A stretch of 64,000 nucleotides of DNA from Comamonadaceae bacterium (GTDB lineage: Bacteria > Pseudomonadota > Gammaproteobacteria > Burkholderiales > Burkholderiaceae_C), in NCBI GenBank assembly GCA_947373185.1, contig CANBWP010000013.1, forward strand, positions 6,797 through 70,796, given 5' to 3'. Made by a program: the position numbers and the translations under genes. The notes under the pieces were generated by a model that saw nothing but the letters and a program-made list of their open reading frames with translations, did not search any database and was not told the origin of the DNA. Shown piece by piece: positions 1,506-60,219 of the stretch (positions are counted from its first letter, which is position 1; every line of letters begins with the position of its first letter).

Positions 1506-2447
1506 TCAAGATGGGGTCGAGGGAGCCCAGCCCATGGCCAAGGCCAACTGATCAATGGACTCTTCTGTGTCTTGGCCTTCTTTGAGCAACCATTCGCAAA
1601 AGCCCTCAATGACGGGACTTTCTTGCGAACTCATTGGTGCGTTGGCGTAGTAACGACGCTGGCGCGCAGCCAGCAAACCAAATGGCGCGCACATCCGACC
1701 CGCAATGATGTCATCGGCCACCAAGAACAAGGGCACCAAGACAACGCCCAAGCCTTCGGCGGCGGCTTGCAATGCAAAATACATTTGCTCAAATTGCAAG
1801 GTGTGAGAAACCCGCATATCAGCCTGACCTGCCATGGGCAGCCACTCCGACCAAGCCATGGGCTCGGTGTCGTAGCTGATCAAGGTGTGGTCGGTCAAGA
1901 ATTTGGGCTCGCTCAATTTGCCGTTTTCGAGCAAGTCGGGGTGACACACAGGCACGATGGTTTCAGTCATGAACGGGACAGACACCATGCCGGGAATCGG
2001 TTGGTGTGCGCCGCGAATGGCCACGTCGTACTGCCGATCTTCGAAATTCACGGGTGCTGTTGAAGTGGTCAACTTCACCTCAACACCACCACGACGTCGT
2101 TGAAAGGCAGAGATGCGAGGAATCAGCCAACGCATGGTGAAAGTTGGAGGCGCACTGATGCGAAGTGCCGTAGGTTCCGTTTGCTCAAGCAACTGCATCG
2201 AAGTGACAGCGATGCGGTCCAGGGCAGGCGTGACCGCTGCCAAAAAGGTGCGTCCAGCATCTGTCAGGCTCAATTGCGATTGCGCACGGTTGAACAAGGT
2301 GGTACCCAACCAAGTTTCGAGGGTGGCCACTTGCTTGCTGACGGCACCGTGTGTGACGAAAAGTTCTTTGGCGGCCTTGGTGAAGCTGACATGGCGGGCA
2401 GCAGCTTCAAAAGCGCGTACGGCATTCAAAGGTGGAAGTTTTCTCAT
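1506..2447 (-). CDS. LysR-family transcriptional regulator (GcvA-like)
   Basis: 313 aa. N-terminal wHTH reads LPPLNAVRAFEAAARHVSFTKAAKELFVTHGAVSKQV. Divergent from the operon starting at 2615. Confidence 0.9.
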   Translation of the reverse strand: MRKLPPLNAVRAFEAAARHVSFTKAAKELFVTHGAVSKQVATLETWLGTTLFNRAQSQLSLTDAGRTFLAAVTPALDRIAVTSMQLLEQTEPTALRISAPPTFTMRWLIPRISAFQRRRGGVEVKLTTSTAPVNFEDRQYDVAIRGAHQPIPGMVSVPFMTETIVPVCHPDLLENGKLSEPKFLTDHTLISYDTEPMAWSEWLPMAGQADMRVSHTLQFEQMYFALQAAAEGLGVVLVPLFLVADDIIAGRMCAPFGLLAARQRRYYANAPMSSQESPVIEGFCEWLLKEGQDTEESIDQLALAMGWAPSTPS

Positions 2448-2614: not shown

Positions 2615-3502
2615 ATGAAAGCAGCTCCCTTTGATTACATCAAAGCCGACAGCCTCACCCACGCCCTTGAAACGCTGGGTGAGTACGGCGGCGATGCCAA
2701 ATTGATTGCTGGCGGCCAGAGTTTGGTCCCCATGATGGCCATGCGGCTGGCACGCCCAACTTGGCTGGTCGACATCAACCGCTTGGACAGCCTGAAAAAC
2801 ATTCAGGTGGGCACGGACCACGTGCATTTGGGTGCCGGGGTTCGCCAGCGTGACCTGGAGTTTCACCCCCAACTGGCGTCTCACCTGCCTTTGGTGGGCC
2901 AAGGCTTGAAATGGGTGGGGCATGAACAAACCCGCAACCGCGGCACCGTCGGCGGCAGTTTGGTCCACGCAGATCCCTCGGCCGAGTTGGCACTTTCAGC
3001 CATGGTCTTGGATGTGACGCTGACCTTGCAGTCCAAAGCAGAAGGGGCTCGCACCCTTCAAGCCGCCGATTTCTTTTTAGGCCCGATGTTCACCGCAGTC
3101 GGCGATACCGAAGTGCTGACCGACATGTCTTGGCCCATATGGCAAGGCGAGCACATTGGCAGCGCCTTTGAAGAAACCGCTATTCGCAAAGGCGACTTTG
3201 CCATGGCCTCTGCAGCCTGCCAGATTCAAACAAACGCAGATGGCGTGATTTCACGCTTGAGTTTTGGCATGGGCGGTGTCGATGGCACGCCCCTAGCCTT
3301 TCCCCAATTGGCAAACACCTTGGTCGGCCAGAAACTGACGGCCGAGTTGGCACAAGCCACCGCACATCAAGCCGCACAAACAAGCCAACCGGGCAGCGAC
3401 ATGCACGCGACGGCCGCCTATCGAAAACACTTGGCAGAAATTCTCTTAAGCCGCGCACTCTTGAGTGCTTATGCGCAAGCGGTAGGTGCGTCTCGCGCCT
3501 AA
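2615..3502 (+). CDS. FAD-binding medium subunit of a xanthine-dehydrogenase-family molybdenum hydroxylase (CoxM-like)
   Basis: 295 aa with FDYIKADSLTHALETL...LIAGGQSLVPMMAMRLARP. The Fe-S subunit follows 12 nt downstream. Confidence 0.9.
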   Translation: MKAAPFDYIKADSLTHALETLGEYGGDAKLIAGGQSLVPMMAMRLARPTWLVDINRLDSLKNIQVGTDHVHLGAGVRQRDLEFHPQLASHLPLVGQGLKWVGHEQTRNRGTVGGSLVHADPSAELALSAMVLDVTLTLQSKAEGARTLQAADFFLGPMFTAVGDTEVLTDMSWPIWQGEHIGSAFEETAIRKGDFAMASAACQIQTNADGVISRLSFGMGGVDGTPLAFPQLANTLVGQKLTAELAQATAHQAAQTSQPGSDMHATAAYRKHLAEILLSRALLSAYAQAVGASRA

Positions 3503-3514
3503 GGAAAAAGCAAC

Positions 3515-4009
3515 ATGACCTCAACTCTTCACATTCCCAAAAAGTCAATTCAGATTCACGTCAATGGTGTTGCCCAGCAACGCTTGGTTGAACCGCGCTT
3601 GAGCTTGGTTGACTTTCTGCGCGACGAACTGGGCCTGACGGGCACCCATGTAGGCTGCGAACACGGCGTCTGTGGCGCCTGCACTGTCATGCTCAACGAT
3701 GAGCCTGTTCGTTCTTGCTGCATGTTTGCGGTTCAAGCCGACGACATGAACGTGACCACCGTAGAAGGTTTAGCGCCTGAGCGAGGTGTGATGACCAAAA
3801 TTCAAGATGCTTTTTGCGAAAAGCATGCTTTGCAATGCGGCTACTGCACACCCGGCATGCTGATGGCCTGCCACGCCTTGGTGGCAGAAAATCCGCACCC
3901 TAGCGAAGCGCAGGTGCGCGAAGCCATCAGCAGCAACATCTGCCGTTGCACAGGCTACCAACAGATTGTGGATGCCGTGATGTACGCCACTCAACCTGAG
4001 AGCAAATGA
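3515..4009 (+). CDS. [2Fe-2S]-binding small subunit of the molybdenum hydroxylase (CoxS-like)
   Basis: 164 aa. Both cluster motifs are present: CEHGVCGACTV and CGYCTPGM...CRCTGY. Confidence 0.93.
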   Translation: MTSTLHIPKKSIQIHVNGVAQQRLVEPRLSLVDFLRDELGLTGTHVGCEHGVCGACTVMLNDEPVRSCCMFAVQADDMNVTTVEGLAPERGVMTKIQDAFCEKHALQCGYCTPGMLMACHALVAENPHPSEAQVREAISSNICRCTGYQQIVDAVMYATQPESK

Positions 4010-6438
4010 CCATGAGCAAGACGCCTTTTCGTTTCATAGGCAAACATCGCCGCGCTGTTGAGCACAAACGATTTGTGATTGGCAAAGGCCGCTATGCCGC
4101 TGACATTCAACTGCCCGGCATGCTTCACATTGCCTTGGTCGCCTCACCTTATGCCAGCGCCAAAATCAAAGGCATTGATGCCAGTCAAGCGCTTGCAATG
4201 CCCGGTGTCCATTTGGTTCTGACCGGCGAAGAGCTGCGTCAACACCTTGACGCCATGTTGCCAGGGGTCGATGCCCCGCAAGTCACCCGTTTCCCCTTGG
4301 CCTTTGATGTCACGCGATATGCGGGCGAATGGGTCGCGGCCGTGGTGGCTGACACGCGCGCGTTGGCAGAAGACGCGGCTGAATTGGTGACCGTGGACTA
4401 CGAGCCATTGCCTTCAGTGGTCGACCCCGAAGAAGCCATCCAGCCCCACGCCACCTTGGTTCATCCAGCGCATGGCACCAATGTGATTTTTCACCGCAAG
4501 TTTGTCTGGGGCCCTGTCGAAGAAGACTTTTCGAAATGCGATCACCAATTGAGCTATCGCGTCAGCTGGGCTCGCAATGCCACCGTCCCCATTGAAACCT
4601 TTGCCGTTGCTGCGCAATGGAACGATGCCACGGGCATTTTGGATGTGTGGGCTTCCATTCAAATGCCCAAGTTTCCGGACCAAATGGCCAAAGCATTGCG
4701 CTTGTCTGGCAACGCCGTGCGTGTGCACTTTGATGTGGACGTGGGTGGCAGTTATGGTGTCAAGCGTGGCTTGAAACACTCGGTGCTGGTGGGCTACATC
4801 GCCAGAAAATTGGGCCGCCCTGTGCGCTTCATTGAGGACCGCCTAGAAAACATGCGGGGGGGTGACATGCAGGGACCTGACCGGGTGTTTGATGTCACTT
4901 TGGGTTTTCAAAACAATGGTGAACTCAAATCGATGCGCATGCGCGCGGTGGATGACATTGGTGCCTATTCGGGCCGTTCACCTTTGCAACTGGGCAAACC
5001 TGTGGGCGCCATCGTAGGACCTTACCGCATCCAAAGCGTTGAATACGACGCCATGGCGGTCATGACCAACAAAACGCCTCAAGAAGCTGTCCGGGGATTT
5101 GGCCAGGCGCCTACCAACTACGCCATTGAAACAGGCATTGACAAAGTGGCCCGTTTTTTAAACATGGACCGCATTGCTTTACGCCGACTCAACATGATTG
5201 GCAAGGACGAGTTTCCCTACCTCATTCCCAGTGGCACCAGCTACGACTCGGGCGACTACGACACGGTCATGACCAAAGCCCTCAACGCAGCGGCCTACGA
5301 TGACCTGCTCAAAGAACGTGACCACTTGCGGGCCTCTGGCCAATTGGCAGGCATTGGCATTTCCACATGCTTAGAGCCATCCGGCGGTAACTCTTCCTTT
5401 GAGCCTTTGTTCAATCCGAAAAACGAAACCACCACTTGGATGGACTCGTGTTTGGTGCGTGTTGATTTATCGGGTGCTGTGACCGCACTCATGGGCACAT
5501 CAACGTCTGGTCAAGCGCACGAAACCATGGTGTCCACGGTGGTCGGTGAAGTGCTTCACCGCGAACCCGACAGCATCCGCGTTTTGCACGCCGACTCGCT
5601 CAATGCCCTCCCCTCCAACAGCCCTGTGGGCAGCCGAATGGCCATCATGTTGGGTGGCGCTGCAGCAGGCGCAGCCAAAAAGATTCGTCACAAACTGCTG
5701 CAGATTGCTGCGCACAATTTGGGCGTCGCCTTGGATCAACTGGAACAACTCGACTACGAAGGTGGTCATGTTCATGTCAAAAACAATCCCAGTCAAAAGC
5801 TTTCATGGGATGCCTTGGTCGAAATTGCACACCGCAAGTTTCACAAGCTGCCGCTAGGCATGGAGCCTGGCTTGCAAGAAAAATTCGTCTGGGAAGTGCC
5901 AACCGGTGGCATGCTGCCGACTGAAGATGGTCGCGTGCAAATGTACCCATGTCACTCCTTCGAGTCGCATGTGGTCTTGGCCAGCATCGATCCTGGTACG
6001 TGCAAAGTGACCATCCGCAAATATGTCTGCGGCCATGATTGTGGCGTCATGATCAGCCCGGATGTGGTGCATGGCATGACCTATGGTGGTATTGCGCATG
6101 GCTTGGGTGCGGCTCTCATGGAAAAATTTGCGTTCTCGCCTGAGGGGCAATTGCTCTCTGGCACCTTCATGGACTATTTGTTGCCGTCATCGGCTGAAGT
6201 ACCCGCCATCACCATCGTGGACCATTGCACACCATCCCCCCTCACGGAGTTTGGTCAAAAGGGTTCAGGCGAAGCCGGCTATTTGGGAAGTCCTGCCGCC
6301 ATTGCCAGTGCTGTCAACGATGCGCTCTCAACGCAAGGCGCAAAAATTGATCACTTGCCCATGACCCCTCAGGCCATTTGGGCCGTGTTGAACGACGCCA
6401 AACAAACACATTCACAGCCCCATACTGGAGTGCAATGA
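4006..6438 (+). CDS. Molybdopterin-binding large subunit of the molybdenum hydroxylase (CoxL/XdhB-like, not a CO dehydrogenase)
   Basis: 810 aa. ATGA stop/start overlap with the small subunit. Contains AVRGFGQAP and GQKGSGEAGYLGSPAA motifs. No CSFR or AYRGAGR string is present. Confidence 0.9.
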   Translation: MTMSKTPFRFIGKHRRAVEHKRFVIGKGRYAADIQLPGMLHIALVASPYASAKIKGIDASQALAMPGVHLVLTGEELRQHLDAMLPGVDAPQVTRFPLAFDVTRYAGEWVAAVVADTRALAEDAAELVTVDYEPLPSVVDPEEAIQPHATLVHPAHGTNVIFHRKFVWGPVEEDFSKCDHQLSYRVSWARNATVPIETFAVAAQWNDATGILDVWASIQMPKFPDQMAKALRLSGNAVRVHFDVDVGGSYGVKRGLKHSVLVGYIARKLGRPVRFIEDRLENMRGGDMQGPDRVFDVTLGFQNNGELKSMRMRAVDDIGAYSGRSPLQLGKPVGAIVGPYRIQSVEYDAMAVMTNKTPQEAVRGFGQAPTNYAIETGIDKVARFLNMDRIALRRLNMIGKDEFPYLIPSGTSYDSGDYDTVMTKALNAAAYDDLLKERDHLRASGQLAGIGISTCLEPSGGNSSFEPLFNPKNETTTWMDSCLVRVDLSGAVTALMGTSTSGQAHETMVSTVVGEVLHREPDSIRVLHADSLNALPSNSPVGSRMAIMLGGAAAGAAKKIRHKLLQIAAHNLGVALDQLEQLDYEGGHVHVKNNPSQKLSWDALVEIAHRKFHKLPLGMEPGLQEKFVWEVPTGGMLPTEDGRVQMYPCHSFESHVVLASIDPGTCKVTIRKYVCGHDCGVMISPDVVHGMTYGGIAHGLGAALMEKFAFSPEGQLLSGTFMDYLLPSSAEVPAITIVDHCTPSPLTEFGQKGSGEAGYLGSPAAIASAVNDALSTQGAKIDHLPMTPQAIWAVLNDAKQTHSQPHTGVQ

Positions 6439-6439
6439 C

Positions 6440-7261
6440 ATGAGCCAACAAACTCAGATGATTCAAGGTCCCGCAGGCAAGATAGCGGTTCACATCGAAG
6501 GGCCAGAGAATGGACCAGCCATTTTGTTGGCACACTCCATTTTGTCTTCCAGCATGATGTGGCGCGAGCAATCCAAGATGCTGGCCGCATGCGGTTGGCG
6601 TGTGGTCAGTGCCGACACGCGCGGTCATGGCCAGTCTGAGTGCCGCACACAAACAGCCACCATGGACGATTTGGTCGCTGACAGCATTGCGGTGCTTGAT
6701 GGCTTGAACATTGCTAAAGCCCACTACATGGGTTTGTCTTTGGGTGGCATGAGTGGCGCTGGCTTGGGCATTCACCACAGCGACCGTTTGCTCAGCATGG
6801 TGCTGTGCGATTGCCGTGCCGACATGCCCACCGCCATGGGCGATGTGTGGAATGAGCGCATGGCCAGTGCTGAAAAAGAAGGATGCCAATCTTTGGCCGT
6901 GGCCACGACGGAACGTTGGTTTGGCTTGCCTTTCATAGATGCCAATCCAGAAACGGGCAAGGCATTTCGAGACACCATTGCCAGCACACAAGTCGCTGGT
7001 TTCGTCAGTTGCGCGCGCGCCATTCAAAGTCTGAACTATCTAGACCAAGTGCACCACATTCAAGTGCCAACAAGCTTGATCGTCGGCGCCAATGATGGCC
7101 CCTTGCCTGCCGCCATGCGAGACATGCAAGAAAAAATCAAGGGTGCGCGTTTGGAAGTGATTCCCAATGCGGGCCACTTGCCCAACATCGACCAATCGAT
7201 TTCATTCAACGCTGCTTTGATGCGGCACTTTTTTCAAAACCCCACATGGAGCCAAGCATGA
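6440..7261 (+). CDS. Alpha/beta-fold hydrolase (3-oxoadipate enol-lactonase-like)
   Basis: 273 aa with ILLAHSILSS...DTRGHGQS and nucleophile elbow GLSLGG. Starts 1 nt after the large subunit stop. Confidence 0.85.
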   Translation: MSQQTQMIQGPAGKIAVHIEGPENGPAILLAHSILSSSMMWREQSKMLAACGWRVVSADTRGHGQSECRTQTATMDDLVADSIAVLDGLNIAKAHYMGLSLGGMSGAGLGIHHSDRLLSMVLCDCRADMPTAMGDVWNERMASAEKEGCQSLAVATTERWFGLPFIDANPETGKAFRDTIASTQVAGFVSCARAIQSLNYLDQVHHIQVPTSLIVGANDGPLPAAMRDMQEKIKGARLEVIPNAGHLPNIDQSISFNAALMRHFFQNPTWSQA

Positions 7262-7989
7262 GCGATCAAATTCAAATTCAACAAGACGGCCGCATTCTGC
7301 GCATCAAGTTCAACCGCGCCGAAGGCAATGGTGTTTCTGACAGCATGGCCGCTGCTTTGTCTGAAGCCGTCATGCAGGCCCACGAGACCTCTGACTGTGT
7401 GGTTTTGAGCAGTGTCGGCCCCGACTTTTGCACAGGCCGTGTGCGCGATGCAGATTTCCCACCGTCGCCTGAAGCCTATTCACGCCGTTCAGAATACGAC
7501 TCTATTTTCAACAGCTACAAAGCACTGCGCAGCTGCTTGGTGCCTGTGATTGGCGTGATTGAAGGCAAGTGCATGGGATTTGGTACGGCCATTGCATCTT
7601 TGTGCGATGTGTCTTTTGCCAGCGACACCGCCACGTTCAACATTCCTGAAATTGCGCACAACGTGATGCCCACCATGGTGATGTCTGCCATCTACGACCG
7701 CATGAACCGCAACGCCATTTTGTACATGGCTTACTCGGCCGACTTCATCAGCGCCGCACAAGCCCAGTCCTACGGCATCGTGAGCAACGTGGTGCCACAA
7801 GCCCAACTCGAAGCTGAAGTTAAACGCTTTTGCGACACACTGCTGAGCCGCCCTCGCCCTGCCATTTTGGGCCTGAAAGAATACTTGCGCGTGGCGCCTC
7901 GCATGGACGAGCAAGGTGCCATTGACTATGCCCGCAGCTTGCACTCGATGGTGAACACCTCTGCCGCCATGAAGAAAAAAGCGCATTGA
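7258..7989 (+). CDS. Enoyl-CoA hydratase/isomerase (crotonase) family protein
   Basis: Crotonase-like pattern ILRIKFNRAEGNGVS...FCTGRV...VIGVIEGKCMGFGTAIA. The ATG at 7258 forms an ATGA overlap with the hydrolase stop. An alternative ATG lies at 7246. Confidence 0.85.
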   Translation: MSDQIQIQQDGRILRIKFNRAEGNGVSDSMAAALSEAVMQAHETSDCVVLSSVGPDFCTGRVRDADFPPSPEAYSRRSEYDSIFNSYKALRSCLVPVIGVIEGKCMGFGTAIASLCDVSFASDTATFNIPEIAHNVMPTMVMSAIYDRMNRNAILYMAYSADFISAAQAQSYGIVSNVVPQAQLEAEVKRFCDTLLSRPRPAILGLKEYLRVAPRMDEQGAIDYARSLHSMVNTSAAMKKKAH

Positions 7990-8043
7990 TTGAACGCGCG
8001 AATTTGATCGACATCCGACAGCCCCACAGAAAGTAGCAAGATC

Positions 8044-8706
8044 ATGGAAATATTAGGTCAACAATTGATTTCGGCCCCACGCCAGAGAGTTTGGGATGCA
8101 TTGAACGATCCCGCCGTGTTGAAAGAATGCTTACCAGGCTGCGAATCTGTGGAGCGCGTCACCCCTGATGAATTTCGGGTGATCATCAAAACGGCCATTG
8201 GACCTTTGAAGGCACGTTTCCAGGGCTCTCTCAAAATCACTGAAGCCAAAGAACCCGAATCTTGCGTGATGCAATTTGAAGGTCAAGGCGGCGCCGTGGG
8301 TTTTGGCAAAGGAACCTCGACTGTCACATTGAAGGAAACGGCTGAAGGCACTGAGCTGAGCTACGAGGCCAAAGCACAAATTGGCGGCAAACTGGCCCAA
8401 GTCGGTTCACGCCTGATTGACAGTGTGGCCAAGAAAATGGCGGACGATTTTTTCAAGGCCTTTCAAAATGCCTTGTCGCCCAAAGCCGAATCGGCTGCGG
8501 CTGCGGCTGCGGCTGCGGCTGCGCCGGTTGCCCAGGCAATGGCGAGCTCCCAAGAGGCCAGCGCCACGCCATCCCGTCAAGCTGATGTTGCAGCCCACGC
8601 GCACACAACGCCCTCAGACGCGCACATGGTGCCGGCCTGGTGGCTTTTCCCTGCGGCTCTGTTGGGCGCCGCCATCATGTTGGCCGGCAATTGCTGGATG
8701 CACTGA
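8044..8706 (+). CDS. CoxG-like SRPBCC protein with poly-Ala linker and C-terminal transmembrane helix
   Basis: N-terminus MEILGQQLISAPRQRVWDALNDPAVLKECLPGCESVE is CoxG-like. C-terminus carries A10 and then VPAWWLFPAALLGAAIMLAGNCWMH. Confidence 0.85.
   Translation: MEILGQQLISAPRQRVWDALNDPAVLKECLPGCESVERVTPDEFRVIIKTAIGPLKARFQGSLKITEAKEPESCVMQFEGQGGAVGFGKGTSTVTLKETAEGTELSYEAKAQIGGKLAQVGSRLIDSVAKKMADDFFKAFQNALSPKAESAAAAAAAAAAPVAQAMASSQEASATPSRQADVAAHAHTTPSDAHMVPAWWLFPAALLGAAIMLAGNCWMH
8494..8523 (+). repeat. Perfect hexanucleotide repeat (GCTGCG)x5 encoding Ala10 inside the CoxG-like gene
   Basis: Counted directly in the sequence (8494..8523). Confidence 0.95.
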
Positions 8707-8736
8707 TCGAATGTGTTTGAACAAAGGAGTCCGGCC

Positions 8737-9867
8737 ATGAAAACATGTTTCTCTCGCAACGGATTTCAAGGGGCTCAGTATGCAGCCCTTCGAAATGGCG
8801 CTCTGTGTTTCTTCAACGGCTTGGCCTTGTGTGGTGCCGTGATGGCTCAAACCATTTCAAGTCAAGCCCCTCTCAGCGGAACTGTCGCAGGCAGCCCGAA
8901 TTTGTTGCAATATGACAAATCGGATCGCACTGAAAAGTTATTGGAAGCCGCCACCAAAGATGGCACGCTCACCCTTTACACCGCCTTCAGGCCCCAAGAT
9001 TTGCCCCTCATCATTGCGCCCTTTGAAGCCAAATACGGCATCAAGGTCAAGGCCTGGCGCTCTGGCAGCAACAACGTGACCCAGCGTGTGGTTCGCGAAG
9101 CGGCCGGCAAACGTCCAGAAGTGGACGTCATCATGATGCCGGCCAGCGAAATGGAAGCGCTGTACCGTGAGAAGTTGCTACAAGCCGTGAGCTCGCCTGC
9201 TACCAAAGACTTGATTGCCAATACGGTGCCCGCACACAAGCAATGGGCCACCGTGTTCATGAATGTCACGGTTCATTCGTACAACACGCAATTGATCAAG
9301 AAAGAAGACCTGCCTAAAACCTACAACGATCTGTTGGATCCGAAGTGGAAGGGTAAATTGGGGGTGGAGTCCAAAGCCGAAGAGTGGTACAGCAAGGTCG
9401 TCACCGTCATGGGCGAAGAAAAAGGCACCAAGTTTTTCCGCGAGTTGGTCACTAAAAATGGCATGTCTGCCAGGTTGGGCGCCTCCCTTTTGCACAATCT
9501 GGTCATTGCGGGTGAAGTGCCCTTGGCCATGACGGTCTACATTGACTTGCCCGAGAAAGACAAACGCGCTGGCAAACCTGTGGACTGGTTTGCCCTTGAC
9601 CCCGTGGTCGCGCAAGGTTTCAACATGTCGATCGCCCAAAAATCGCAACATCCCAACGCTGCGCTTTTGTTTTACGACTACATGCTCTCACCGGAGACCC
9701 AAAAACTTCTCACCACTTTGCACTACTACCCAGCCAATGCCAAAGTACCCAATCCTTATCCCAACATGAAAATTGAAGTGATTGACCCCGTCATCACGAT
9801 GGACACCTTCAGCAAATGGACCAAATCCTTTGACGATGTGGTCATCAAAAATTCAAGCACCAAATAA
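8737..9867 (+). CDS. Periplasmic ABC-type solute-binding protein (family 1, Fe3+/AfuA-like fold); orphan copy 1
   Basis: AAGGAG lies 7 nt upstream of the ATG at 8737. Signal-like N-terminus ...LALCGAVMAQT. Shares LTLYTA...KYGIKVKAWRSGS...DLPKTYNDLLDPKWKGKLG with the ORF at 13803. Confidence 0.8.
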   Translation: MKTCFSRNGFQGAQYAALRNGALCFFNGLALCGAVMAQTISSQAPLSGTVAGSPNLLQYDKSDRTEKLLEAATKDGTLTLYTAFRPQDLPLIIAPFEAKYGIKVKAWRSGSNNVTQRVVREAAGKRPEVDVIMMPASEMEALYREKLLQAVSSPATKDLIANTVPAHKQWATVFMNVTVHSYNTQLIKKEDLPKTYNDLLDPKWKGKLGVESKAEEWYSKVVTVMGEEKGTKFFRELVTKNGMSARLGASLLHNLVIAGEVPLAMTVYIDLPEKDKRAGKPVDWFALDPVVAQGFNMSIAQKSQHPNAALLFYDYMLSPETQKLLTTLHYYPANAKVPNPYPNMKIEVIDPVITMDTFSKWTKSFDDVVIKNSSTK

Positions 9868-9884
9868 CGACTCTCACGATTGAC

Positions 9885-11747
9885 ATGAAAAAAACAACGA
9901 CCACCAAATCCGCTGCCGCTAAAAAATCAAGCGTGGCAACAAAGACCGTTCAAAAAACTGCGGCCCCTCAACGTGGCTACCGCGATTTGCACGAGCACTT
10001 GGCCGAACTCGACAAACAAGGCCTCTTGATCACGGTTGACCGGCCGATCAACAAAGACACCGAACTTCACCCCTTGGTGCGTTGGCAATTCAGGGGCGGT
10101 ATTGCCGAACCCGATCGCAAAGCATTTCTGTTCACCAATGTGGTGAATGGCAAAGGCAAAAAATATGACATCCCCGTGGTGGTGGGTGCTTTGGCGGCCA
10201 CACGCAAAATTTACAGCGTGGGCATGGGCTGTGAGATTGCAGACATTGGCAAAACATGGAGCCATGCGATTGCCAACCCCATCAAACCCAATGTCCTGAA
10301 AGACGCACCCTGCCAAGAAATCGTGATCCAAGGCAAAGACCTGTTGAAGCCTGGCAATGGCGTGGACAGTTTGCCCATTCCCATCTCGACACCTGGTTGG
10401 GACAATGCGCCCTACACCACCTTGTCTCAGTACATCTCCAAAGATCCTGACACGGGCATTCAAAACATGGGCATCTACCGAGGTCAAGTGAAGTCCCCGA
10501 CACGTCTGGGCATGAACCCTTCATTGGAAAATCAACCTGGCATCTATACCCACTGGGAAAAAGCCAAAGCACGCGGTGAACGTTTACCCGCCGCTGTCAT
10601 TCTGGGTTGCCCCCCCTGCGTGGCGTTCACATCGGCGCAGAAGTTGTCTGAAGACACAGACGAATTGCATGTGGCTGGTGGCTTGGCCGGCGCCCCAATC
10701 AATGTCGTGAAATGCAAAACCGTTGACTTGATGGTTCCAGCAGAAGCAGAGATCGTGATCGAAGGCTACATCAACACCGAATGGTTGGAGCCAGAGGCAC
10801 CCTTTGGCGAATCACATGGCCATGTCAACTTGCAAGAGTTCAACGCCTACATGGAAGTGACGGCCATCACACGCCGCAAGGACGCCATTCTCACGTCCAT
10901 CATTTCACAAGTCACCCCTTCTGAGTCGAGCTTGATCAAACGCGTGGCGCTTGAGCCTGTGTTCTTGAATCACCTGAGCAAAGCCATGGGCATCAAGGGT
11001 GTGAAGAAAGTGGTCATGCACGAGCCACTGACCAACCTGCGCAAAGTGATTTCCATTGTGGTGGACCGAAAGATGCCGCAAACTGAAGTTTGGCGTGCGC
11101 TGTATGGTGCAGCCTCTTTGCTGCGGTCGGGCGGCAAACTGGTGATTGCCGTGAACGAGGACATCGATCCGGACAATGCCGACGCGCTGCTTTGGGCCAT
11201 GAGTTACCGCGCCAACTTTGCGCTTGACTTGCAAGTCTTGCAAAACCGCGACCCCGGTCATGGACCGCGCAGCCCACGCAACAATGGCATGGACTCTTCC
11301 TTGCTAATTGACGCCACCCTGAAAGACGACTTCCCACCCATTGCGTTGCCCAAAAAAGAGTTCATGGAAAACGCCAAAGCCATTTGGGAAGAGTTGGGTC
11401 TGCCCAAACTCAAACCTGAAGCACCTTGGTTTGGTTACTCGCTGGGTGACTGGAGCGAACGCAATGAGCAAATGGCTCAGCGCGCCGTCAAGGGTGACTA
11501 CTTTGTCACAGGCGAAGAGATTGCAAAGATGCGCCGCAAAGACGTGCCCATGAACACGGAAATCAAACACGTCATGGAAAACGAAGGTCGCAAAGCTTTG
11601 CCCGAGAAAAAAATCAGCGCTAAAACCAGCGCAAAGAAGGCAGTCAAAGCAGTGGCAAAGTTGCCCGCAACAACCAAGGCCAAAGCCAAAGTTCAAGTGA
11701 CAACAAAGCCAAAGGCTTCTGCCAAAAAATCAGCAGCGAAGAAGTAA
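9885..11747 (+). CDS. UbiD-family decarboxylase with Lys/Ala-rich N- and C-terminal extensions
   Basis: 620 aa. Core has YRDLHEHLAELDKQGLL...PFGESHGH...VIAVNEDIDPDNADALLWAM. The final 46 residues contain 16 Lys, 12 Ala and no acidic residue. Confidence 0.9.
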   Translation: MKKTTTTKSAAAKKSSVATKTVQKTAAPQRGYRDLHEHLAELDKQGLLITVDRPINKDTELHPLVRWQFRGGIAEPDRKAFLFTNVVNGKGKKYDIPVVVGALAATRKIYSVGMGCEIADIGKTWSHAIANPIKPNVLKDAPCQEIVIQGKDLLKPGNGVDSLPIPISTPGWDNAPYTTLSQYISKDPDTGIQNMGIYRGQVKSPTRLGMNPSLENQPGIYTHWEKAKARGERLPAAVILGCPPCVAFTSAQKLSEDTDELHVAGGLAGAPINVVKCKTVDLMVPAEAEIVIEGYINTEWLEPEAPFGESHGHVNLQEFNAYMEVTAITRRKDAILTSIISQVTPSESSLIKRVALEPVFLNHLSKAMGIKGVKKVVMHEPLTNLRKVISIVVDRKMPQTEVWRALYGAASLLRSGGKLVIAVNEDIDPDNADALLWAMSYRANFALDLQVLQNRDPGHGPRSPRNNGMDSSLLIDATLKDDFPPIALPKKEFMENAKAIWEELGLPKLKPEAPWFGYSLGDWSERNEQMAQRAVKGDYFVTGEEIAKMRRKDVPMNTEIKHVMENEGRKALPEKKISAKTSAKKAVKAVAKLPATTKAKAKVQVTTKPKASAKKSAAKK

Positions 11748-11776
11748 CGACCCGACACGAAGAGGTGAGGTGACAC

Positions 11777-13036
11777 ATGGAAAGCGTCAAGCAAAATAAA
11801 TTACTGACCGAAGTGGGCAAAGGCACGCCCATGGGCAATTTGATGCGCCGTTACTGGCAACCCATTGGCGCCGCCGTGGAGCTAGAGAAGAAATGGACCA
11901 AGCGCATTCGCCTGTTGGGAGAAGACTTGGTCTTGTTCAAAGACCGCCAAGGCAGGTTGGGTTTGATCGCGGAACAGTGCCCGCATCGCAGAGCGTCCTT
12001 TGCCCATGGCATTCCCACTGAGAATGGCATTCGTTGCCCATACCACGGCTGGGAATACAACGCGCAGGGCAAATGCATCAACCAACCCAACGAGCAAGAC
12101 AAATGCGCATTCCGGGACAAAGTCAGCACGGACGCGTACCCTGTAGAAGAATTGGGCGGCATGTTGTTTGCCTACATGGGGCCAATGCCTGCGCCCTTGC
12201 TGCCTCGCTGGGATGGCTTTGTGGCCGAAGGCACCATTCGAATGATGGGACGCACCATCTTGCCCATCAATTGGCTGCAAATCATGGAAAACTCACTGGA
12301 TCCCATTCACACAGAATGGCTCCACGGTCATCACTATGAATTTTTGAAGGAACAAGAAGGCATCAAGGTTGCCATCAGTACGCACCACCTGAAAATTGAC
12401 TTCAAAGAATTCGAATACGGCATGACCAAGCACCGTTTGCTCGAAGGCCACTCTGAAGACGGAGACGATTGGAAAATCGGACACCCTATCGTGTTCCCGA
12501 ACATGTTGGCGGTTGGCAATGGCGACGAAAAATCGCGCTACTACTCCTTCCAAATGCGCGTGCCTGTCGATGACACGCACACCATGCACCTTTGGTTCAA
12601 TGCCTATGTGCCACCTCAAGGCGTCGCGGTGCCTGCGCATTTGTTGGACCGCGTTCACACTTATGAAGTCCCCTACCTTGATGAATCAGGCGAGTTCATT
12701 GTTGACAACGTCGACGGCCAAGACATGATGGCCTGGATTTCGCAAGGCGCCATTGCGGATCGCTCGCTGGAGAACTTAGGCGCGACAGACAAGGGGGTTG
12801 TCATGTATCGCCGCATCTTGAAACGTGAAATGCAAAAAGTCGAGGCTGGCATTGACCCCATGGGTTTGGTCCGCGACAGCGCCCGCAACCAACGCATCGA
12901 CTTGCCCAACGAGAAGAAGAAGCATCACAACAGCGATGGTTTTACCAGCTTCATGATGCGAACCCACGCCAAGTATTCCCCCATTGCCAACGACTTGTCC
13001 AAGTTGTTTGAACCTCATCTGCACACCGCCAAGTGA
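11777..13036 (+). CDS. Rieske [2Fe-2S] non-haem-iron oxygenase, alpha subunit (phthalate-family/LigXa-KshA-like)
   Basis: 419 aa. Rieske motif CPHRRASFAHG...CPYHGW. Iron site NSLDPIHTEWLH. N-terminal LTEVGKGTPMGNLMRRYWQPI. Confidence 0.88.
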   Translation: MESVKQNKLLTEVGKGTPMGNLMRRYWQPIGAAVELEKKWTKRIRLLGEDLVLFKDRQGRLGLIAEQCPHRRASFAHGIPTENGIRCPYHGWEYNAQGKCINQPNEQDKCAFRDKVSTDAYPVEELGGMLFAYMGPMPAPLLPRWDGFVAEGTIRMMGRTILPINWLQIMENSLDPIHTEWLHGHHYEFLKEQEGIKVAISTHHLKIDFKEFEYGMTKHRLLEGHSEDGDDWKIGHPIVFPNMLAVGNGDEKSRYYSFQMRVPVDDTHTMHLWFNAYVPPQGVAVPAHLLDRVHTYEVPYLDESGEFIVDNVDGQDMMAWISQGAIADRSLENLGATDKGVVMYRRILKREMQKVEAGIDPMGLVRDSARNQRIDLPNEKKKHHNSDGFTSFMMRTHAKYSPIANDLSKLFEPHLHTAK

Positions 13037-13746
13037 TTCACATGCAAATCAACGAATTGAAACAACGCCTGATCGATGCCGGTCACATCTTGGAAAATGC
13101 GGGCCAGGGCGACCTGACCCGCGGCCATGTGTCCATTCGCTTGCCTGACGACCCTGCCCACTTCATCATGAAGCCGCACAGCTATGGTTTTGATGAAATC
13201 ACCCTTGAAAACATTGTCTTGTGCAACCTTGACGGTGAAAAAGTGGGCGGTGGAGGCCGCAAACACAGTGAGGTCTACATTCACTCTGAAATTTTCAAAG
13301 CGCGCCCCGATGTCAACAGCGTGATTCACACGCACCCCACTTATGCCGTGGCGCTTTCTGCCACCGGCCAAAAATTAGAGCCCATCAGCCAACCTGCCGT
13401 GGCCTTTGCCGATGGCCTGCCCTATTTCAACGATGCCATTGACCTCATTCGCACCCATGAGCTTGGCATCGGTGTGGCCAACGCGCTTGGCAGCTGCAAA
13501 GCCGTTCTGATGCGCAACCATGGCGCAGCCATTGTGGGTGGCAATGTGGAAGAAGCCACCATCTTGGCCATCATGCTGGACAATGCCTGCCAGATTCAGT
13601 TGGCCACCATGGCGGCCGGTGGCATTGGCGAGAAGTTCACGGCAGAACAGGTGAGCAAGTTGCACCACGACATCACACGACCCGAGCAGTACGTGATCAA
13701 TTTTGAATATCTGCGACGCCGCGCGCTCCGACAATTGGCAGCTTGA
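13033..13746 (+). CDS. Class II aldolase/adducin-family protein
   Basis: 237 aa. Metal-binding His pattern SEVYIHSEIF...VIHTHP...MRNHGA. GTGA overlap with the Rieske stop. An alternative ATG lies at 13042. Confidence 0.85.
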   Translation: MIHMQINELKQRLIDAGHILENAGQGDLTRGHVSIRLPDDPAHFIMKPHSYGFDEITLENIVLCNLDGEKVGGGGRKHSEVYIHSEIFKARPDVNSVIHTHPTYAVALSATGQKLEPISQPAVAFADGLPYFNDAIDLIRTHELGIGVANALGSCKAVLMRNHGAAIVGGNVEEATILAIMLDNACQIQLATMAAGGIGEKFTAEQVSKLHHDITRPEQYVINFEYLRRRALRQLAA

Positions 13747-13802
13747 CGCGCCGTTTCAAATCGCTACGCTGACAGCACCCGCCAACACTTTGGAACCATC
13801 CG

Positions 13803-14852
13803 ATGCGCCCTTTGACACTCTTTGTGACCGCCGCTTGTTTCTTCATGGCAGGCGCACAGGCTCAAACCCCCGAACCTGCCAAACCCCTGTCGATTCAGGA
13901 GCTGGCCACCTACCAAGGTGCTGACCGTACCGCCCGCCTGATCGAGGGTGCGAAAAAGGAAGGCACTTTGTCGGTGTATCACGTCTATCCGGCCCTGAGC
14001 AACGTGATGAATGAGTTCAGTAAAAAGTACGGCATCAAAATCAAAGCTTGGCGCGCTGGTTCAGAAGCGGTCTTGCAACGCGTGACCAGCGAAAGCCGTG
14101 GCAACAAGTTTGACGTCGACATCGTGCAAAACAATGCCCCCGAAAACGAAGCGGCGTTCCGCGAAAAATTGTTGCAAGAGGTGAAGTCGCCTTTCCATGC
14201 CGATTTGTTGCCGCAAGCCGTCCCGGCCCACAAACAATGGGTCGGCATCACCGTTGACATCTGGACGGCAGCCTACAACACCGAGAAAATCAAAAAGGAA
14301 GACTTGCCCAAGACCTACAAAGATTTGCTCGACCCCAAATGGAAAGGTCAATTGGGCATTGAAGGCAACAACCACGCATGGTTTGGCGCCTTGATGAACA
14401 AGATGGGCGAAGAAGAAGGTCAAAAGCTTTTTGCCAACATTGCAAGCACCAACGGCATCTCCAATCGCAAGGGCCACTCGCTGCTGACCATGATGGTGTC
14501 TTCAGGTGAAGTCCCTCTGGCCCTGACGGTGTACAGCTGGAACCCTGAGCAATTGAAAATCAAAGGCGCACCCGTTGAAGGTCTGGCTTTACAGCCACTC
14601 ATGGCGCAACCGAGCACCATTGCGATGCTGAAAAAATCGCCCAACCCCCATGCGGCCCTGCTGTTTTATGACTACATGTTGAGTGAAGGCCAAAAGCAAC
14701 TGTATGACTTGAAATTTGTGCCCACCAGCAAGAAGTACGAACTGCCCTTCCCCAAGGTGCCGCTGAACTTCATTGACCCCGGTATGGCGCTGGACCAGCA
14801 AGCCAAATGGTTCAAGATGTTTGAAGACACCGTGGTCAAGCGGGCCAAGTAA
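13803..14852 (+). CDS. Periplasmic ABC-type solute-binding protein; orphan copy 2, paralog of 8737..9867
   Basis: 349 aa. Signal peptide MRPLTLFVTAACFFMAGAQA. Contains KYGIKIKAWRAGS...DLPKTYKDLLDPKWKGQLG. Confidence 0.85.
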   Translation: MRPLTLFVTAACFFMAGAQAQTPEPAKPLSIQELATYQGADRTARLIEGAKKEGTLSVYHVYPALSNVMNEFSKKYGIKIKAWRAGSEAVLQRVTSESRGNKFDVDIVQNNAPENEAAFREKLLQEVKSPFHADLLPQAVPAHKQWVGITVDIWTAAYNTEKIKKEDLPKTYKDLLDPKWKGQLGIEGNNHAWFGALMNKMGEEEGQKLFANIASTNGISNRKGHSLLTMMVSSGEVPLALTVYSWNPEQLKIKGAPVEGLALQPLMAQPSTIAMLKKSPNPHAALLFYDYMLSEGQKQLYDLKFVPTSKKYELPFPKVPLNFIDPGMALDQQAKWFKMFEDTVVKRAK

Positions 14853-16028
14853 TTGACAGGTCAGATCGCAAGCACCCACGCCACGCCGCTGCGCATTGCC
14901 GTGGTGGGCTTTGGTGCGGCGGCGCAAGCTTTTGTGCCGGCCATTTTGGGCAATCCCGAATTTGAATTGGCGGCCATTGTTGAGCCTCATGAGGATGTGC
15001 AACCCCAAGCACGCCGCTTGGGCGTTCCGGTCTTTTCACACCTAGATCAACTGCGTCAGCTGTCCCGTTTAGATGGGGTGTATTTGGCCACACCGACACC
15101 ACTGCATGCAGCACAAAGTGTGGCCTGCTTAGAGGCAGGCTGGCATGTCTTGGTCGAAAAACCCATGGCCTGCAATGCGGCACAAGCGCTGCGCATGGTG
15201 GACACGGCCAAACGTTGCAACAAGCACCTGACGGTGGGGCACTCACACAGTTTTGACGCCCCGATTCAAGCCATGCGTCAGATCATTCAAAGGGGCGAAC
15301 TGGGCAAGGTTCACATGGTGAACACCTGGTGCTTCACCGATTGGGTCTATCGCCCTCGGCGCGCAGAAGAGTTGGACAGCGACTTCGGGGGGGGCGCCAC
15401 CTTTCGACAAGGGGCCCATCAGATCGACATCTTGCGCGCACTGTGCGGCGCCAAGGTCAAAACCGTCAAGGCCAAGGTATTCGATGTCGACCCTCAACGT
15501 TCAACCCATGGCGCGCACGCCATTTTCTTGGATTTTGACAACGGCGCTGCAGCGACCGCCATCTACAACGGCTATGGCGGCATGTCCAGCATGGACTTGA
15601 CCCAGAACATTTCAGAATGGGGGTTTGACCAGCCTCCCCATCTCAGAACTTGGTACACCCGCCCAGACAAAGCACACAGTCCCGAGCAAGAGCTCAAGGC
15701 CAAACAACAGCGGGCTCAATCGGCCATTCCAGCCACGTCGCCCCATCAGCCACATTTTGGGTTGACGGTGGTCAGTGGTGCTTTGGGCGATGTGCGTCAA
15801 ACCCCAGATGGCTTGCAAATTTCTGGCCCCAATGGCCAGACAGACATTCAACTCAGCCTTCAGGCCAGTCCCAGGGATTTGGTGCTGGCCGAGCTGGCGC
15901 ACACATGGCGTGGTACAGCCCAGCCTTGGCACGATGGCATGTGGGGGTATGAAAATTTAAGGGTGTGTGAAGCTGCCATTGCGTCTGCGGCCACTGGACG
16001 CGAAGTGCTTCTGGACGACCCTTGCTAG
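14853..16028 (+). CDS. Gfo/Idh/MocA-family NAD(P)-dependent oxidoreductase
   Basis: 391 aa. Rossmann start LRIAVVGFGAAAQ and EKPMA motif. TTG start abuts the preceding stop, so the start is uncertain. Confidence 0.8.
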   Translation: MTGQIASTHATPLRIAVVGFGAAAQAFVPAILGNPEFELAAIVEPHEDVQPQARRLGVPVFSHLDQLRQLSRLDGVYLATPTPLHAAQSVACLEAGWHVLVEKPMACNAAQALRMVDTAKRCNKHLTVGHSHSFDAPIQAMRQIIQRGELGKVHMVNTWCFTDWVYRPRRAEELDSDFGGGATFRQGAHQIDILRALCGAKVKTVKAKVFDVDPQRSTHGAHAIFLDFDNGAAATAIYNGYGGMSSMDLTQNISEWGFDQPPHLRTWYTRPDKAHSPEQELKAKQQRAQSAIPATSPHQPHFGLTVVSGALGDVRQTPDGLQISGPNGQTDIQLSLQASPRDLVLAELAHTWRGTAQPWHDGMWGYENLRVCEAAIASAATGREVLLDDPC

Positions 16029-60070: not shown

Positions 60071-60219
60071 AAGAAGTAAATGCGGACCAAAATTTGGAAG
60101 CCCCCATTGTCCAATACTTCTGGCCTGGATCTTCAGCAAGGGGGGGTAGACAGCGGCTGAAACCCTGCTGAGGACTGGGTGAATCCGGTCAAAAGTCGCT
60201 GCAGGTCAAGAATTCGCAG

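What the first reader, a model, noticed from the sequence alone, without database searches (positions are those of the whole stretch)
9885..11747. UbiD decarboxylase carrying histone-H1/AlgP-like Lys/Ala tails at both termini
Seen in the sequence:
- The paralog at 1..1412 starts MSQKNTG-YPDLHDHL. Relative to it, this ORF has about 24 extra N-terminal residues (MKKTTTTKSAAAKKSSVATKTVQK, 7 Lys).
- It ends in a 46-residue tail, KKISAKTSAKKAVKAVAKLPATTKAKAKVQVTTKPKASAKKSAAKK (nt 11607..11744). By my count the tail has 16 Lys, 12 Ala and no Asp/Glu.
- The C-tail is in frame with the catalytic domain with no intervening stop.
- The N-tail depends on use of the ATG at 9885. A GTG at codon 17 is the only alternative before the conserved core.

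Established knowledge: KA-rich tails of this type are typical of bacterial H1-like polyanion-binding proteins. I do not know them as a feature of UbiD enzymes.

Inference: the tails could tether the enzyme to DNA, polyphosphate, RNA or an anionic membrane surface, or mediate assembly with the tail-anchored CoxG/Mo-hydroxylase complex encoded just upstream.
Basis: partly seen in the sequence, partly recalled or inferred. Interest (0 to 1): 0.62.

Follow-up and report, generated by a model that had tools for sequence, protein, structure and literature searches.

The report
Decarboxylase with lysine-rich floppy tails
A freshwater bacterium's aromatic-acid decarboxylase (UbiD family) carries real, evolutionarily maintained, strongly positive, floppy lysine-rich tails at both ends; they probably stick the enzyme to a negatively charged cell component such as DNA, RNA or polyphosphate, but no binding has been tested.

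Summary
ORF 9885..11747 (+) encodes a 620-aa UbiD-fold enzyme with an N-tail (aa 1-31, net +8) and a C-tail (aa 575-620: 16 K, 12 A, no D/E).

- **Translated:** in 11 of 20 orthologous loci the ATG at the head of the tail is the only possible start. All length changes between orthologs are in frame. Independent metagenome assemblies show no indel.
- **Disordered:** AlphaFold2 gives pLDDT below 50 for both tails.
- **Selected:** dN/dS is about 0.23 in the tails and 0.02 in the core (p about 1e-6 against neutrality).
- **Protein-specific:** in 13 congeneric Limnohabitans-type species the ortholog always has both tails. The co-located 58%-identical paralog never does. None of 47 other UbiD cluster representatives has them.
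- **Not a genome-wide quirk:** the C-tail ranks in the top 3 of 2277 genes for lysine content. Locus GC does not predict tails.
- **Dispensable:** some orthologs lack tails, one of them in a locus with the same cluster genes.

The tails have the composition of an H1/AlgP tail but no repeats. The best reading is a bulk-charge tether to a cellular polyanion (nucleoid, RNA, polyP or anionic membrane), about 50% likely and inferred only by analogy with PhaM, PhaF and AlgP. Docking to the CoxG/Mo-hydroxylase complex has no support. The substrate is unknown. This is a new variant of a known kind, of moderate interest.

The parts
9885..9977 (+). N-terminal Lys/Thr/Ala/Ser-rich disordered tail (aa 1-31, net +8), starting at the ATG followed by A7
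   Evidence: Translation. AlphaFold2 pLDDT is below 50 for aa 1-23. In 11 of 20 orthologous loci this ATG is the only in-frame start before the core. Orthologs carry N-tails of net +4 to +8.
9978..11561 (+). UbiD-fold catalytic core (aa 32-559). It includes a conserved ~75-aa helical C-terminal extension (aa ~485-559) specific to this subfamily.
   Evidence: Pfam PF20695, PF01977 and PF20696. Foldseek matches HmfF 6h6v, E. coli UbiD and AroY. The alignment with HmfF and E. coli UbiD conserves QNxGIYR and AEIV(I/L)EG...PFGE. Invariant columns are listed. dN/dS is 0.02.
11562..11606 (+). Conserved linker IKHVMENEGRKALPE (aa 560-574) between the core and the C-tail
   Evidence: Conserved among congeneric orthologs as IKHVMxxEGRxALPx. 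pLDDT is below 50.
11607..11747 (+). C-terminal Lys/Ala-rich disordered tail (aa 575-620: 16 K, 12 A, 0 D/E) plus the stop codon
   Evidence: for sequence and counts. pLDDT is below 50. It is top 3 of 2277 genes for K in the last 30 aa. Ortholog C-tails are 32-65 aa, net +8 to +17. Strict-tail dN/dS is 0.23. Independent assemblies show no indels.
1..1412 (-). Tail-less UbiD paralog (543 aa in full, 58% identical, net -13). Its 3' end and the UbiX gene lie just outside the window (C13:6592-8208 and C13:5995-6504).
   Evidence: In 13 congeneric genomes the paralog always has a 7-aa N end and a 6-7-aa C end.
2615..16028 (+). Twelve-gene catabolic operon containing the tailed UbiD. Gene order: Mo-hydroxylase FAD, 2Fe-2S and Mo subunits; alpha/beta hydrolase; enoyl-CoA hydratase-family; CoxG (membrane-anchored); solute-binding protein; UbiD; Rieske (LigXa-like) oxygenase; class II aldolase-family (PhtC-like); solute-binding protein; GFO/IDH/MocA oxidoreductase.
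   Evidence: Pfam and NCBIfam. The upstream half is conserved next to tail-bearing Burkholderiales orthologs. The operon ends at 16028.
1506..2447 (-). Divergent LysR-type regulator between the two UbiD genes
   Evidence: Pfam HTH_1 + LysR_substrate.

Best explanation
The gene encodes a prFMN-dependent UbiD-family (hetero)aromatic acid decarboxylase of unknown substrate. It sits in an accessory catabolic operon of a Limnohabitans-type freshwater Burkholderiales bacterium.

Its two termini carry intrinsically disordered polycationic tails. They raise the monomer from net -3 (pI 6.5) to net +20 (pI 9.4).

Selection maintains the tails for bulk properties: many Lys, small neutral residues, almost no Asp/Glu. 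It does not maintain their sequence.

The most likely mechanism is non-specific, multivalent electrostatic tethering of the enzyme to a cellular polyanion. The closest structural relatives are hexamers, so the enzyme would carry about 12 tails. The most probable targets are the nucleoid or RNA, or polyphosphate; less likely is the anionic inner-membrane leaflet. Tethering would control where the enzyme sits, not how it catalyses.

**Shown here:** the tails are real, translated, disordered, selected and specific to this protein (I put this above 0.9).
**Inferred only:** the binding partner and the physiological benefit. The confidence of 0.5 given here is for this tethering mechanism.
For: **Enzyme identity**
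- UbiD domains and UbiD fold, with conserved motifs against HmfF and E. coli UbiD.
- UbiX is encoded next to the paralog.

**Tails are translated**
- The tail ATG is the sole start codon in 11 of 20 orthologous loci.
- All length differences are in frame.
- Independent assemblies show no indels.

**Tails are disordered**
- pLDDT is below 50 and no secondary structure is predicted for aa 1-23 and 560-620.

**Tails are selected**
- Pooled dN/dS is 0.23 in the strict tails against 0.02 in the core.
- The binomial p against neutrality is 8.6e-7.
- D+E is 2.5% in 43 ortholog tails against 9.9% in the proteome, despite rapid sequence and length turnover.

**Tails are specific to this protein**
- All 13 congeneric species that carry the gene keep both tails on the ortholog and none on the co-located paralog.
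- None of 47 full-length representatives of other UbiD clusters has them.

**Charge rather than codon bias**
- Basic termini also occur as short K/R clusters, or Arg-rich in a 72% GC locus, in more distant Burkholderiales and alphaproteobacterial orthologs.
- Locus GC does not predict tails.

**Analogy for the mechanism**
- In this genome the same kind of tail sits mainly on DNA-, RNA- and granule-associated proteins. These are H1-like proteins, topoisomerase-SWIB, RpoD, a DksA-like protein, TetR regulators, an RbgA-like GTPase, SET proteins, a phasin and a PHB depolymerase.
- Lys/Ala-rich tails of PhaM, PhaF and AlgP tether cargo to the nucleoid or to polyP granules (PMC9049629; PMC9239181).
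Against: - No binding, localisation or expression data exist, and no RNA run holds the gene.
- The tails are dispensable for the enzyme. Orthologs L004 and L057 (81-88% identical) lack them; L004's locus holds the same cluster genes, L057's only the binding protein.
- The tails lack the KPAA/PAKKA tandem repeats of proven DNA or polyP binders and are richer in Thr, Ser and Val.
- Tail state changed at least 8-9 times on the ortholog tree, so the constraint is weak.
- The N-C charge correlation (rho 0.57) is not phylogenetically independent, and the independent-pair test was underpowered.
- A catabolic decarboxylase has no obvious reason to sit on DNA.
Confidence: 0.5

Rival explanations
1. Solubility or charge-tuning 'entropic bristles'. 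The tails keep a near-neutral (pI 6.5), probably hexameric enzyme soluble, or aid its folding and assembly. No specific partner is involved.
For: - The core has net charge of only -3 and pI 6.5.
- The tails are disordered.
- Only composition is conserved, not sequence.
- The tails are dispensable in some orthologs.
Against: - Bristles need not be cationic, yet the sign of the charge is conserved and acidic residues are excluded.
- The 58%-identical paralog and tail-less orthologs manage without tails.
- Across orthologs, more basic tails go with less acidic cores, not with more acidic ones (rho +0.56). That is the opposite of charge compensation.
Confidence: 0.18
2. Electrostatic targeting to the anionic inner-membrane leaflet. 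This would place the decarboxylase beside the CoxG-anchored Mo-hydroxylase and the uptake system. It is the nearest thing to the first reader's complex-assembly idea.
For: - CoxG in the operon has a C-terminal transmembrane anchor.
- Two solute-binding proteins are in the operon.
- The window's own C-tail contains a segment with above-random helical amphipathicity (z = 2.0).
- From general knowledge: E. coli UbiD is membrane-associated, and polybasic tails bind acidic lipids.
Against: - Amphipathicity is not conserved: mean z is 0.31 over 43 ortholog tails.
- The tails hold almost no large hydrophobic residues (L+I+M+F+W below 2%).
- L004 has no tails although its locus holds the cluster genes, CoxG among them.
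Confidence: 0.12
3. Nearly neutral low-complexity expansions. They are tolerated at the free termini of this protein in a lineage prone to Lys/Ala-rich sequence, and have no function.
For: - Sequence and length turn over very fast (C-tail 32-65 aa at 96% core identity).
- At least 8-9 state changes occur on the tree.
- Tail-less orthologs exist.
- The genome carries about a dozen other K-rich tails.
Against: - dN/dS is about 0.23, significantly below 1.
- Both tails are retained in every one of 13 congeneric species and in dozens of metagenomic orthologs, with no frameshift or early stop.
- D/E exclusion persists.
- The paralog in the same genomes never gains tails.
- Tails do not depend on GC.
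Confidence: 0.12
4. Protein-protein docking. The cationic tails hold the enzyme to the acidic paralog (net -13) or to other acidic pathway enzymes, forming a hetero-complex or metabolon.
For: - Ortholog and paralog co-occur about 10 kb apart in all 13 congeneric genomes that carry the gene, and in L004 and L005.
- The paralog has net -13 and the other cluster enzymes are acidic.
- Multi-paralog loci are common in this subfamily.
- From general knowledge: phenylphosphate carboxylase is built from UbiD paralogs.
Against: - No partner has a defined acidic patch or tail.
- L004 and L005 both keep the paralog. L004's ortholog has no tails, while L005's has basic ones (N +7, C +7).
- Rapidly evolving, sequence-free tails are atypical of specific interfaces.
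Confidence: 0.06

Closest known systems
UbiD-family prFMN-dependent decarboxylases. The nearest solved structures are HmfF (2,5-furandicarboxylate decarboxylase, PDB 6h6v) and E. coli UbiD (5m1d/2idb).
   Same: - Three UbiD Pfam domains are present.
- The fold matches (Foldseek E 2.6e-36).
- QNxGIYR and AEIV(I/L)EG...PFGE motifs are conserved.
- UbiX is encoded nearby.
- The closest relatives belong to the hexameric branch (PMC7976604).
   Different: - Identity to HmfF and UbiD is only 26-28%.
- It scores below every NCBIfam cut-off, including the general TIGR00148 model (219 against 244.85).
- It has a ~75-aa conserved helical C-terminal extension.
- It carries two polycationic disordered tails. 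No other UbiD cluster sampled has them, and the literature search for UbiD with 'lysine-rich' found nothing.
AlgP and PhaF of Pseudomonas (histone-H1-like KPAA-repeat C-terminal domains)
   Same: The segments are Lys/Ala-rich, free of acidic residues and intrinsically disordered. In AlgP and PhaF such domains bind DNA and localise to polyP or PHA granules (PMC9239181; PMC9049629).
   Different: - No tandem repeats.
- Much shorter: 31 and 46 aa against 154 aa.
- Pro 5% and Thr+Ser 18% rather than KPAA.
- Attached to a catalytic enzyme at both ends, not to a structural or regulatory protein.
- The likeness is compositional. Homology was not shown.
PhaM of Cupriavidus necator (a Burkholderiales protein whose C-terminal PAKKA motifs tether PHB granules to the nucleoid)
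   Same: Same bacterial order. A lysine-rich C-terminal tail whose lysines mediate nucleoid attachment of a cargo (PMC9049629). This genome also puts K-rich tails on a phasin and a PHB depolymerase.
   Different: The window's tail has no PAKKA motif (SAKKA and SAKKS only). The cargo is a soluble decarboxylase, not a granule. No link to PHB metabolism is known.
Lysine-rich tails on metabolic enzymes noted elsewhere in this scan (aconitase and SucD in Zixibacteria, GlgA and GlgB in Clostridia, a cupin). These are unchecked AI notes.
   Same: Conserved, disordered polycationic tails on otherwise ordinary enzymes, read as polyanion tethers.
   Different: Different enzymes and phyla, and a single tail each as described. 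Here there are tails at both termini, plus a paralog as an internal control. None has experimental support.

Membership tests
UbiD decarboxylase family (Pfam PF01977 with PF20695/PF20696) | The three UbiD domains score above the Pfam gathering thresholds | tested here: met
   UbiD 179.5 bits (cut-off 23.3), UbiD_C 42.2 (24.2), UbiD_N 28.0 (24.3).
UbiD decarboxylase family | UbiD three-dimensional fold | tested here: met
   The AF2 model (pTM 0.75) matches HmfF, E. coli UbiD, AroY, VdcC, HudA and Fdc1 at Foldseek E 1e-30 to 1e-36, probability 1.00.
UbiD decarboxylase family | Conserved metal/prFMN-phosphate ligands and the catalytic Arg/Glu residues | tested here: inconclusive
   QNMGIYR (N194, R199), H223, E260 and AEIVIEG (E289, E293) are invariant in 75 sequences. 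They align with the identical motifs of HmfF and E. coli UbiD. Mapping them to the named catalytic residues of Fdc1 and UbiD rests on memory; it was not checked against a structure here.
UbiD decarboxylase family | A UbiX flavin prenyltransferase partner is available | tested here: met
   A PF02441 match (139.7 bits) in a 212-aa open frame lies at C13:5995-6504, directly downstream of the paralog.
NCBIfam TIGR00148 (UbiD subfamily) and the named equivalogs (UbiD PRK10922, VdcC, MqnL-type, phenylphosphate carboxylase) | Score above the curated cut-off | tested here: not met
   TIGR00148 scores 219.1 against 244.85, and all equivalogs fall far below their cut-offs. It is therefore an uncharacterised clade. 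More than 588 loci of it occur in Burkholderiales and Alphaproteobacteria.
HmfF (2,5-furandicarboxylate decarboxylase) | Close sequence relationship and hmf gene context (furoyl-CoA ligase HmfD) | tested here: not met
   Identity is 28%. The operon has a Mo-hydroxylase and an ECH-family gene but no AMP-binding CoA ligase.
AlgP/PhaF-type histone-H1-like repeat domain | Tandem KPAA / AAKP-type tetrapeptide or pentapeptide repeats | tested here: not met
   TRF finds only a 12-nt unit in 1.9 copies. Pro is 5%. Pfam gives no hit on the tails.
AlgP/PhaF-type histone-H1-like repeat domain | Lys/Ala-rich, acid-free, intrinsically disordered | tested here: met
   K 33%, A 22% and D+E 2.5% over 43 ortholog tails. 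pLDDT is below 50.
AlgP/PhaF-type histone-H1-like repeat domain | Binds DNA and/or polyphosphate | not testable with these tools
   This needs EMSA or polyP binding with purified protein.

The most novel reading that the evidence does not exclude
The tails recruit a whole (probably hexameric) catabolic decarboxylase to a polyanion-scaffolded, membraneless compartment: the nucleoid surface, or a polyP or PHB granule. That would make the compartment a site of aromatic-acid catabolism in this freshwater Burkholderiales lineage. The tether might also be switchable by lysine modification. The genome encodes two SET-domain lysine methyltransferases, and these are the only other proteins in it with basic stretches at both termini.
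Probability: 0.1. Interest if true: 0.75.

Novelty: new variant of a known kind. Interest (0 to 1): 0.45.

Why it matters
UbiD enzymes are studied intensively as reversible (de)carboxylation catalysts, and none sampled or found in the literature here has polycationic disordered tails. This is a clean natural experiment. The same genomes hold a tailed ortholog and a tail-less paralog, and some orthologs lack tails, one of them (L004) in a locus with the same cluster genes. That makes it a tractable case for asking why bacteria attach histone-H1-like tails to ordinary metabolic enzymes. If the tails localise the enzyme to the nucleoid, polyP or the membrane, this would extend the PhaM/PhaF/AlgP tethering principle from storage granules to soluble catabolic enzymes. 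There is also a practical point: anyone expressing this clade for biocatalysis should expect sticky, protease- and trypsin-sensitive ends and nucleic-acid contamination.

Tried and rejected
1. **Genome-wide compositional quirk: rejected.** Only about a dozen of roughly 2300 crude genes carry K-rich stretches. The UbiD C-tail is top 3, and only 3 genes have basic stretches at both ends.
2. **AT-bias explanation: rejected.** Locus GC does not predict tail length (rho -0.04) or charge (rho -0.21). Low-GC loci lack tails, and high-GC loci have K- or R-rich ones.
3. **Frameshift or assembly artefact: rejected.** Independent metagenome contigs are identical with no indels, and the frame is kept in all orthologs.
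4. **Downstream start that would skip the N-tail: rejected.** In 11 of 20 orthologous loci no other start codon exists.
5. **Conserved amphipathic membrane helix: not supported.** Mean z is 0.31 over 43 tails, although the window's own tail scores z = 2.0.
6. **Co-evolution of N- and C-tail charge: unresolved.** The raw Spearman correlation is 0.57, but the phylogenetically independent-pair test had only 3-5 pairs. I do not count it as evidence.
7. **Tandem-repeat origin: none found.** TRF gave nothing of substance.
8. **Substrate assignment from context: failed.**
   - No NCBIfam equivalog is reached by any operon protein.
   - Distant orthologs sit in unrelated contexts.
   - HmfF-like context was considered and dropped, because the CoA ligase is missing.
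9. **Literature:** nothing on UbiD with 'lysine-rich', on UbiD with Limnohabitans, or on lysine-rich tails in Burkholderiales.
10. **Transcription evidence:** no RNA run holds the gene.
Full report
**1. Observation**

ORF 9885..11747 (+) is open and encodes 620 aa. Pfam places UbiD_N, UbiD and UbiD_C on aa 39-455.

- The first 24 residues hold 7 Lys.
- The last 46 residues (nt 11607..11744) hold 16 Lys, 12 Ala and no Asp/Glu.
- The only alternative start before the conserved core is the GTG at codon 17.
- The paralog at the window's left edge begins MSQKNTGYPDLHDHL, which is 24 residues shorter.

Using conserved anchors, the N-tail is aa 1-31 (net +8). The core is aa 32-559. A conserved linker IKHVMENEGRKALPE follows, and the C-tail is aa 575-620. 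With the tails the protein has net +20 and pI 9.4. Without them it has net -3 and pI 6.5.

**2. Is it real, and more than chance?**

*Sequence accuracy.* At least nine lake or freshwater metagenome runs from three or more studies hold the stretch. One contig (run X9) covers 9761-11800 with 0 differences and 0 gaps. The other runs tile it with no indel.

*Translation of the N-tail.* In 11 of 20 orthologous loci the ATG at the head of the K-rich stretch is the only ATG, GTG or TTG between the upstream in-frame stop and the invariant core. There is no Shine-Dalgarno sequence. The start lies 12-20 nt after the stop of the preceding binding-protein gene and is followed by an A-run.

*Disorder.* AlphaFold2 on a 75-sequence alignment gave pTM 0.75. 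Residues 1-23 and 560-620 have pLDDT below 50 and no secondary structure.

*Rarity in the genome.* The genome is 2.79 Mb, 54% GC and 99.9% complete.
- Proteome Lys is 4.4% and Asp+Glu is 9.9%.
- The C-tail is top 3 of 2277 crude genes for Lys in the last 30 residues.
- Only three genes have basic stretches at both ends: this UbiD and two SET-domain proteins.

**3. Comparative evidence**

More than 120 orthologs at 72-95% identity exist, with lengths of 548-627 aa. Almost all of the close ones carry K/A/T/S-rich tails at both ends. The tails differ in sequence and length.

The gene is accessory. One of 151 genera in the family has it (the window's own), and 13 of 101 species in the genus have it. 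One of these genomes (G232) is the record titled 'Limnohabitans sp.' (L002 has the same coordinates as L091), so the genus is Limnohabitans-type.

In all 13 species the picture is the same:

| Protein | Identity | N end | C end |
|---|---|---|---|
| Ortholog | core 90-97% identical | tail, net +4 to +8 | tail of 32-65 aa, net +8 to +17 |
| Paralog about 10 kb away | 57-58% identical | 7 aa | 6-7 aa |

Further out:
- Orthologs at 70-77% identity (soil Burkholderiales, Stellaceae, other Alphaproteobacteria) have short basic ends, for example MDALTKPKRK... and ...KERASKPRAKRGR. A 72% GC locus has an Arg-rich version.
- Orthologs at or below 70% identity are mostly neutral or acidic.
- Two orthologs at 81-88% identity, L004 (labelled Sulfurifustaceae) and L057 (Burkholderiaceae), lack tails. 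L004's locus holds the Mo-hydroxylase large subunit, CoxG, the binding protein and the paralog; L057's holds only the binding protein.

Locus GC does not predict tails. Among the 47 full-length sequences in the best 150 representatives of other UbiD clusters (at or below 60% identity), none has K-rich ends.

**4. Selection**

For three close, independent species pairs the strict tail regions give dS 0.40 and dN 0.089, so omega is 0.23. The binomial p against the neutral expectation is 8.6e-7. The core gives omega of 0.02.

Indels of 8-16 codons are all in frame. Acidic residues stay excluded: 2.5% over 43 tails.

The constraint is on composition and charge, not sequence, and it is loose. The basic state changed at least 8-9 times on a 120-sequence tree.

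The raw N-C charge correlation (rho 0.57) could not be confirmed with independent pairs because there were too few.

**5. What the enzyme is**

The fold and motifs are those of UbiD. The nearest structures are HmfF 6h6v and E. coli UbiD, at 26-28% identity. Both belong to the hexameric branch of the family (PMC7976604).

No NCBIfam model is reached, not even TIGR00148. The clade is large, with more than 588 loci. It has its own ~75-aa helical C-terminal extension.

UbiX lies beside the paralog, just outside the window.

The operon (2615-16028) encodes, in order:
- a three-subunit Mo-hydroxylase
- a PcaD-like hydrolase
- an ECH-family protein
- a membrane-anchored CoxG
- a solute-binding protein
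- the tailed UbiD
- a LigXa-like Rieske oxygenase
- a PhtC-like class II aldolase-family protein
- a second solute-binding protein
- a GFO-family dehydrogenase

. This points to catabolism of a (hetero)aromatic carboxylate. I could not assign the substrate.

**6. Mechanism**

In this genome the same kind of tail sits on:
- two H1-like proteins
- topoisomerase-SWIB
- RpoD
- a DksA-like protein
- two TetR regulators
- an RbgA-like GTPase
- two SET-domain proteins
- a phasin
- a PHB depolymerase
- an MltD-like protein

. Most of these are proteins that work on DNA, RNA or storage granules.

[quoted passage not shown] AlgP's KPAA domain binds DNA and localises to polyP granules (PMC9239181).

By analogy, I read the UbiD tails as multivalent, non-specific polyanion tethers, at about 50%. 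This step is inference.

The rivals are:
- solubility bristles (0.18)
- anionic-membrane targeting next to the CoxG-anchored hydroxylase (0.12)
- near-neutral low-complexity drift (0.12)
- docking to the acidic paralog or to pathway enzymes (0.06)

The amphipathic-helix version of membrane binding is not conserved. The CoxG/Mo-hydroxylase docking idea finds no complementary acidic segment.

**7. Comparison and novelty**

As an enzyme this is an uncharacterised UbiD clade. As tails, they resemble AlgP, PhaF, PhaM and H1 in composition and disorder. They fail the repeat criterion, and homology was not shown.

I found no paper linking UbiD with lysine-rich tails. Earlier unchecked notes of this scan describe comparable tails on other metabolic enzymes in other phyla. 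The phenomenon may therefore be general and under-described.

**Verdict:** observation confirmed; interpretation partly supported; a new variant of a known kind; moderate interest (0.45).

Noticed in passing
window 59123-60139 (-): An RbgA/YlqF-like ribosome-biogenesis GTPase (Pfam MMR_HSR1) ends in a basic tail, ...ERAQKKEAATKAKKQARKAKAPQKS (9 K in the last 30 aa). It ranks 4th in the genome.
   Followed up: partly
window 8044-8706 (+): CoxG homologue with a poly-Ala linker and a hydrophobic C-terminal anchor (...VPAWWLFPAALLGAAIMLAGNCWMH). It probably anchors the Mo-hydroxylase to the membrane.
   Followed up: partly
genome C12:30720-31346 (+) and C1:110193-110768 (-), outside the window: Two SET-domain proteins (PF00856 confirmed for the C12 copy; the C1 copy by sequence likeness) have basic stretches at both termini. 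One sits 30 nt from, and divergent to, a topoisomerase with a K-rich linker and a SWIB domain (C12:27651-30689). They are the only other proteins in the genome that are basic at both ends.
   Followed up: partly
genome C9:67905-69305 (-), outside the window: A DksA-like zinc-finger protein carries a ~330-aa Lys/Ala/Pro/Thr-rich N-terminal extension. At net +62 it is the most basic protein in the genome.
   Followed up: no
genome C44:4633-6033 (+) and C8:58978-59487 (+), outside the window: An intracellular PHB depolymerase (PF06850) and a phasin (PF05597) both end in K/A-rich tails. Granule enzymes in this lineage therefore also carry them.
   Followed up: partly
L036, L037, L054, L074, L048, L055, L038, L068, L070, L029 (alphaproteobacterial loci): Two or three paralogs of this UbiD subfamily sit within 13 kb. 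One paralog class has a conserved acidic C-terminal extension (VRTLDEGNPGA...EEGELTWDGLTDASR, net about -5). It is a sequence-conserved module, unlike the basic tails.
   Followed up: no
window 9868-9900 and orthologous loci L085-L094: The tailed UbiD gene has no recognisable Shine-Dalgarno sequence. It starts 12-20 nt after the stop of the upstream binding-protein gene, and the ATG is followed by an A-run (ATGAAAAAAA). This suggests coupled or A-rich-enhanced initiation.
   Followed up: partly
L033:8466-9956 (-) and L033:4384-5961 (+): In one alphaproteobacterial locus the ortholog is flanked by an AMP-binding CoA ligase, an amidohydrolase and a canonical-length UbiD. This context is quite different from the Burkholderiales operon.
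   Followed up: no
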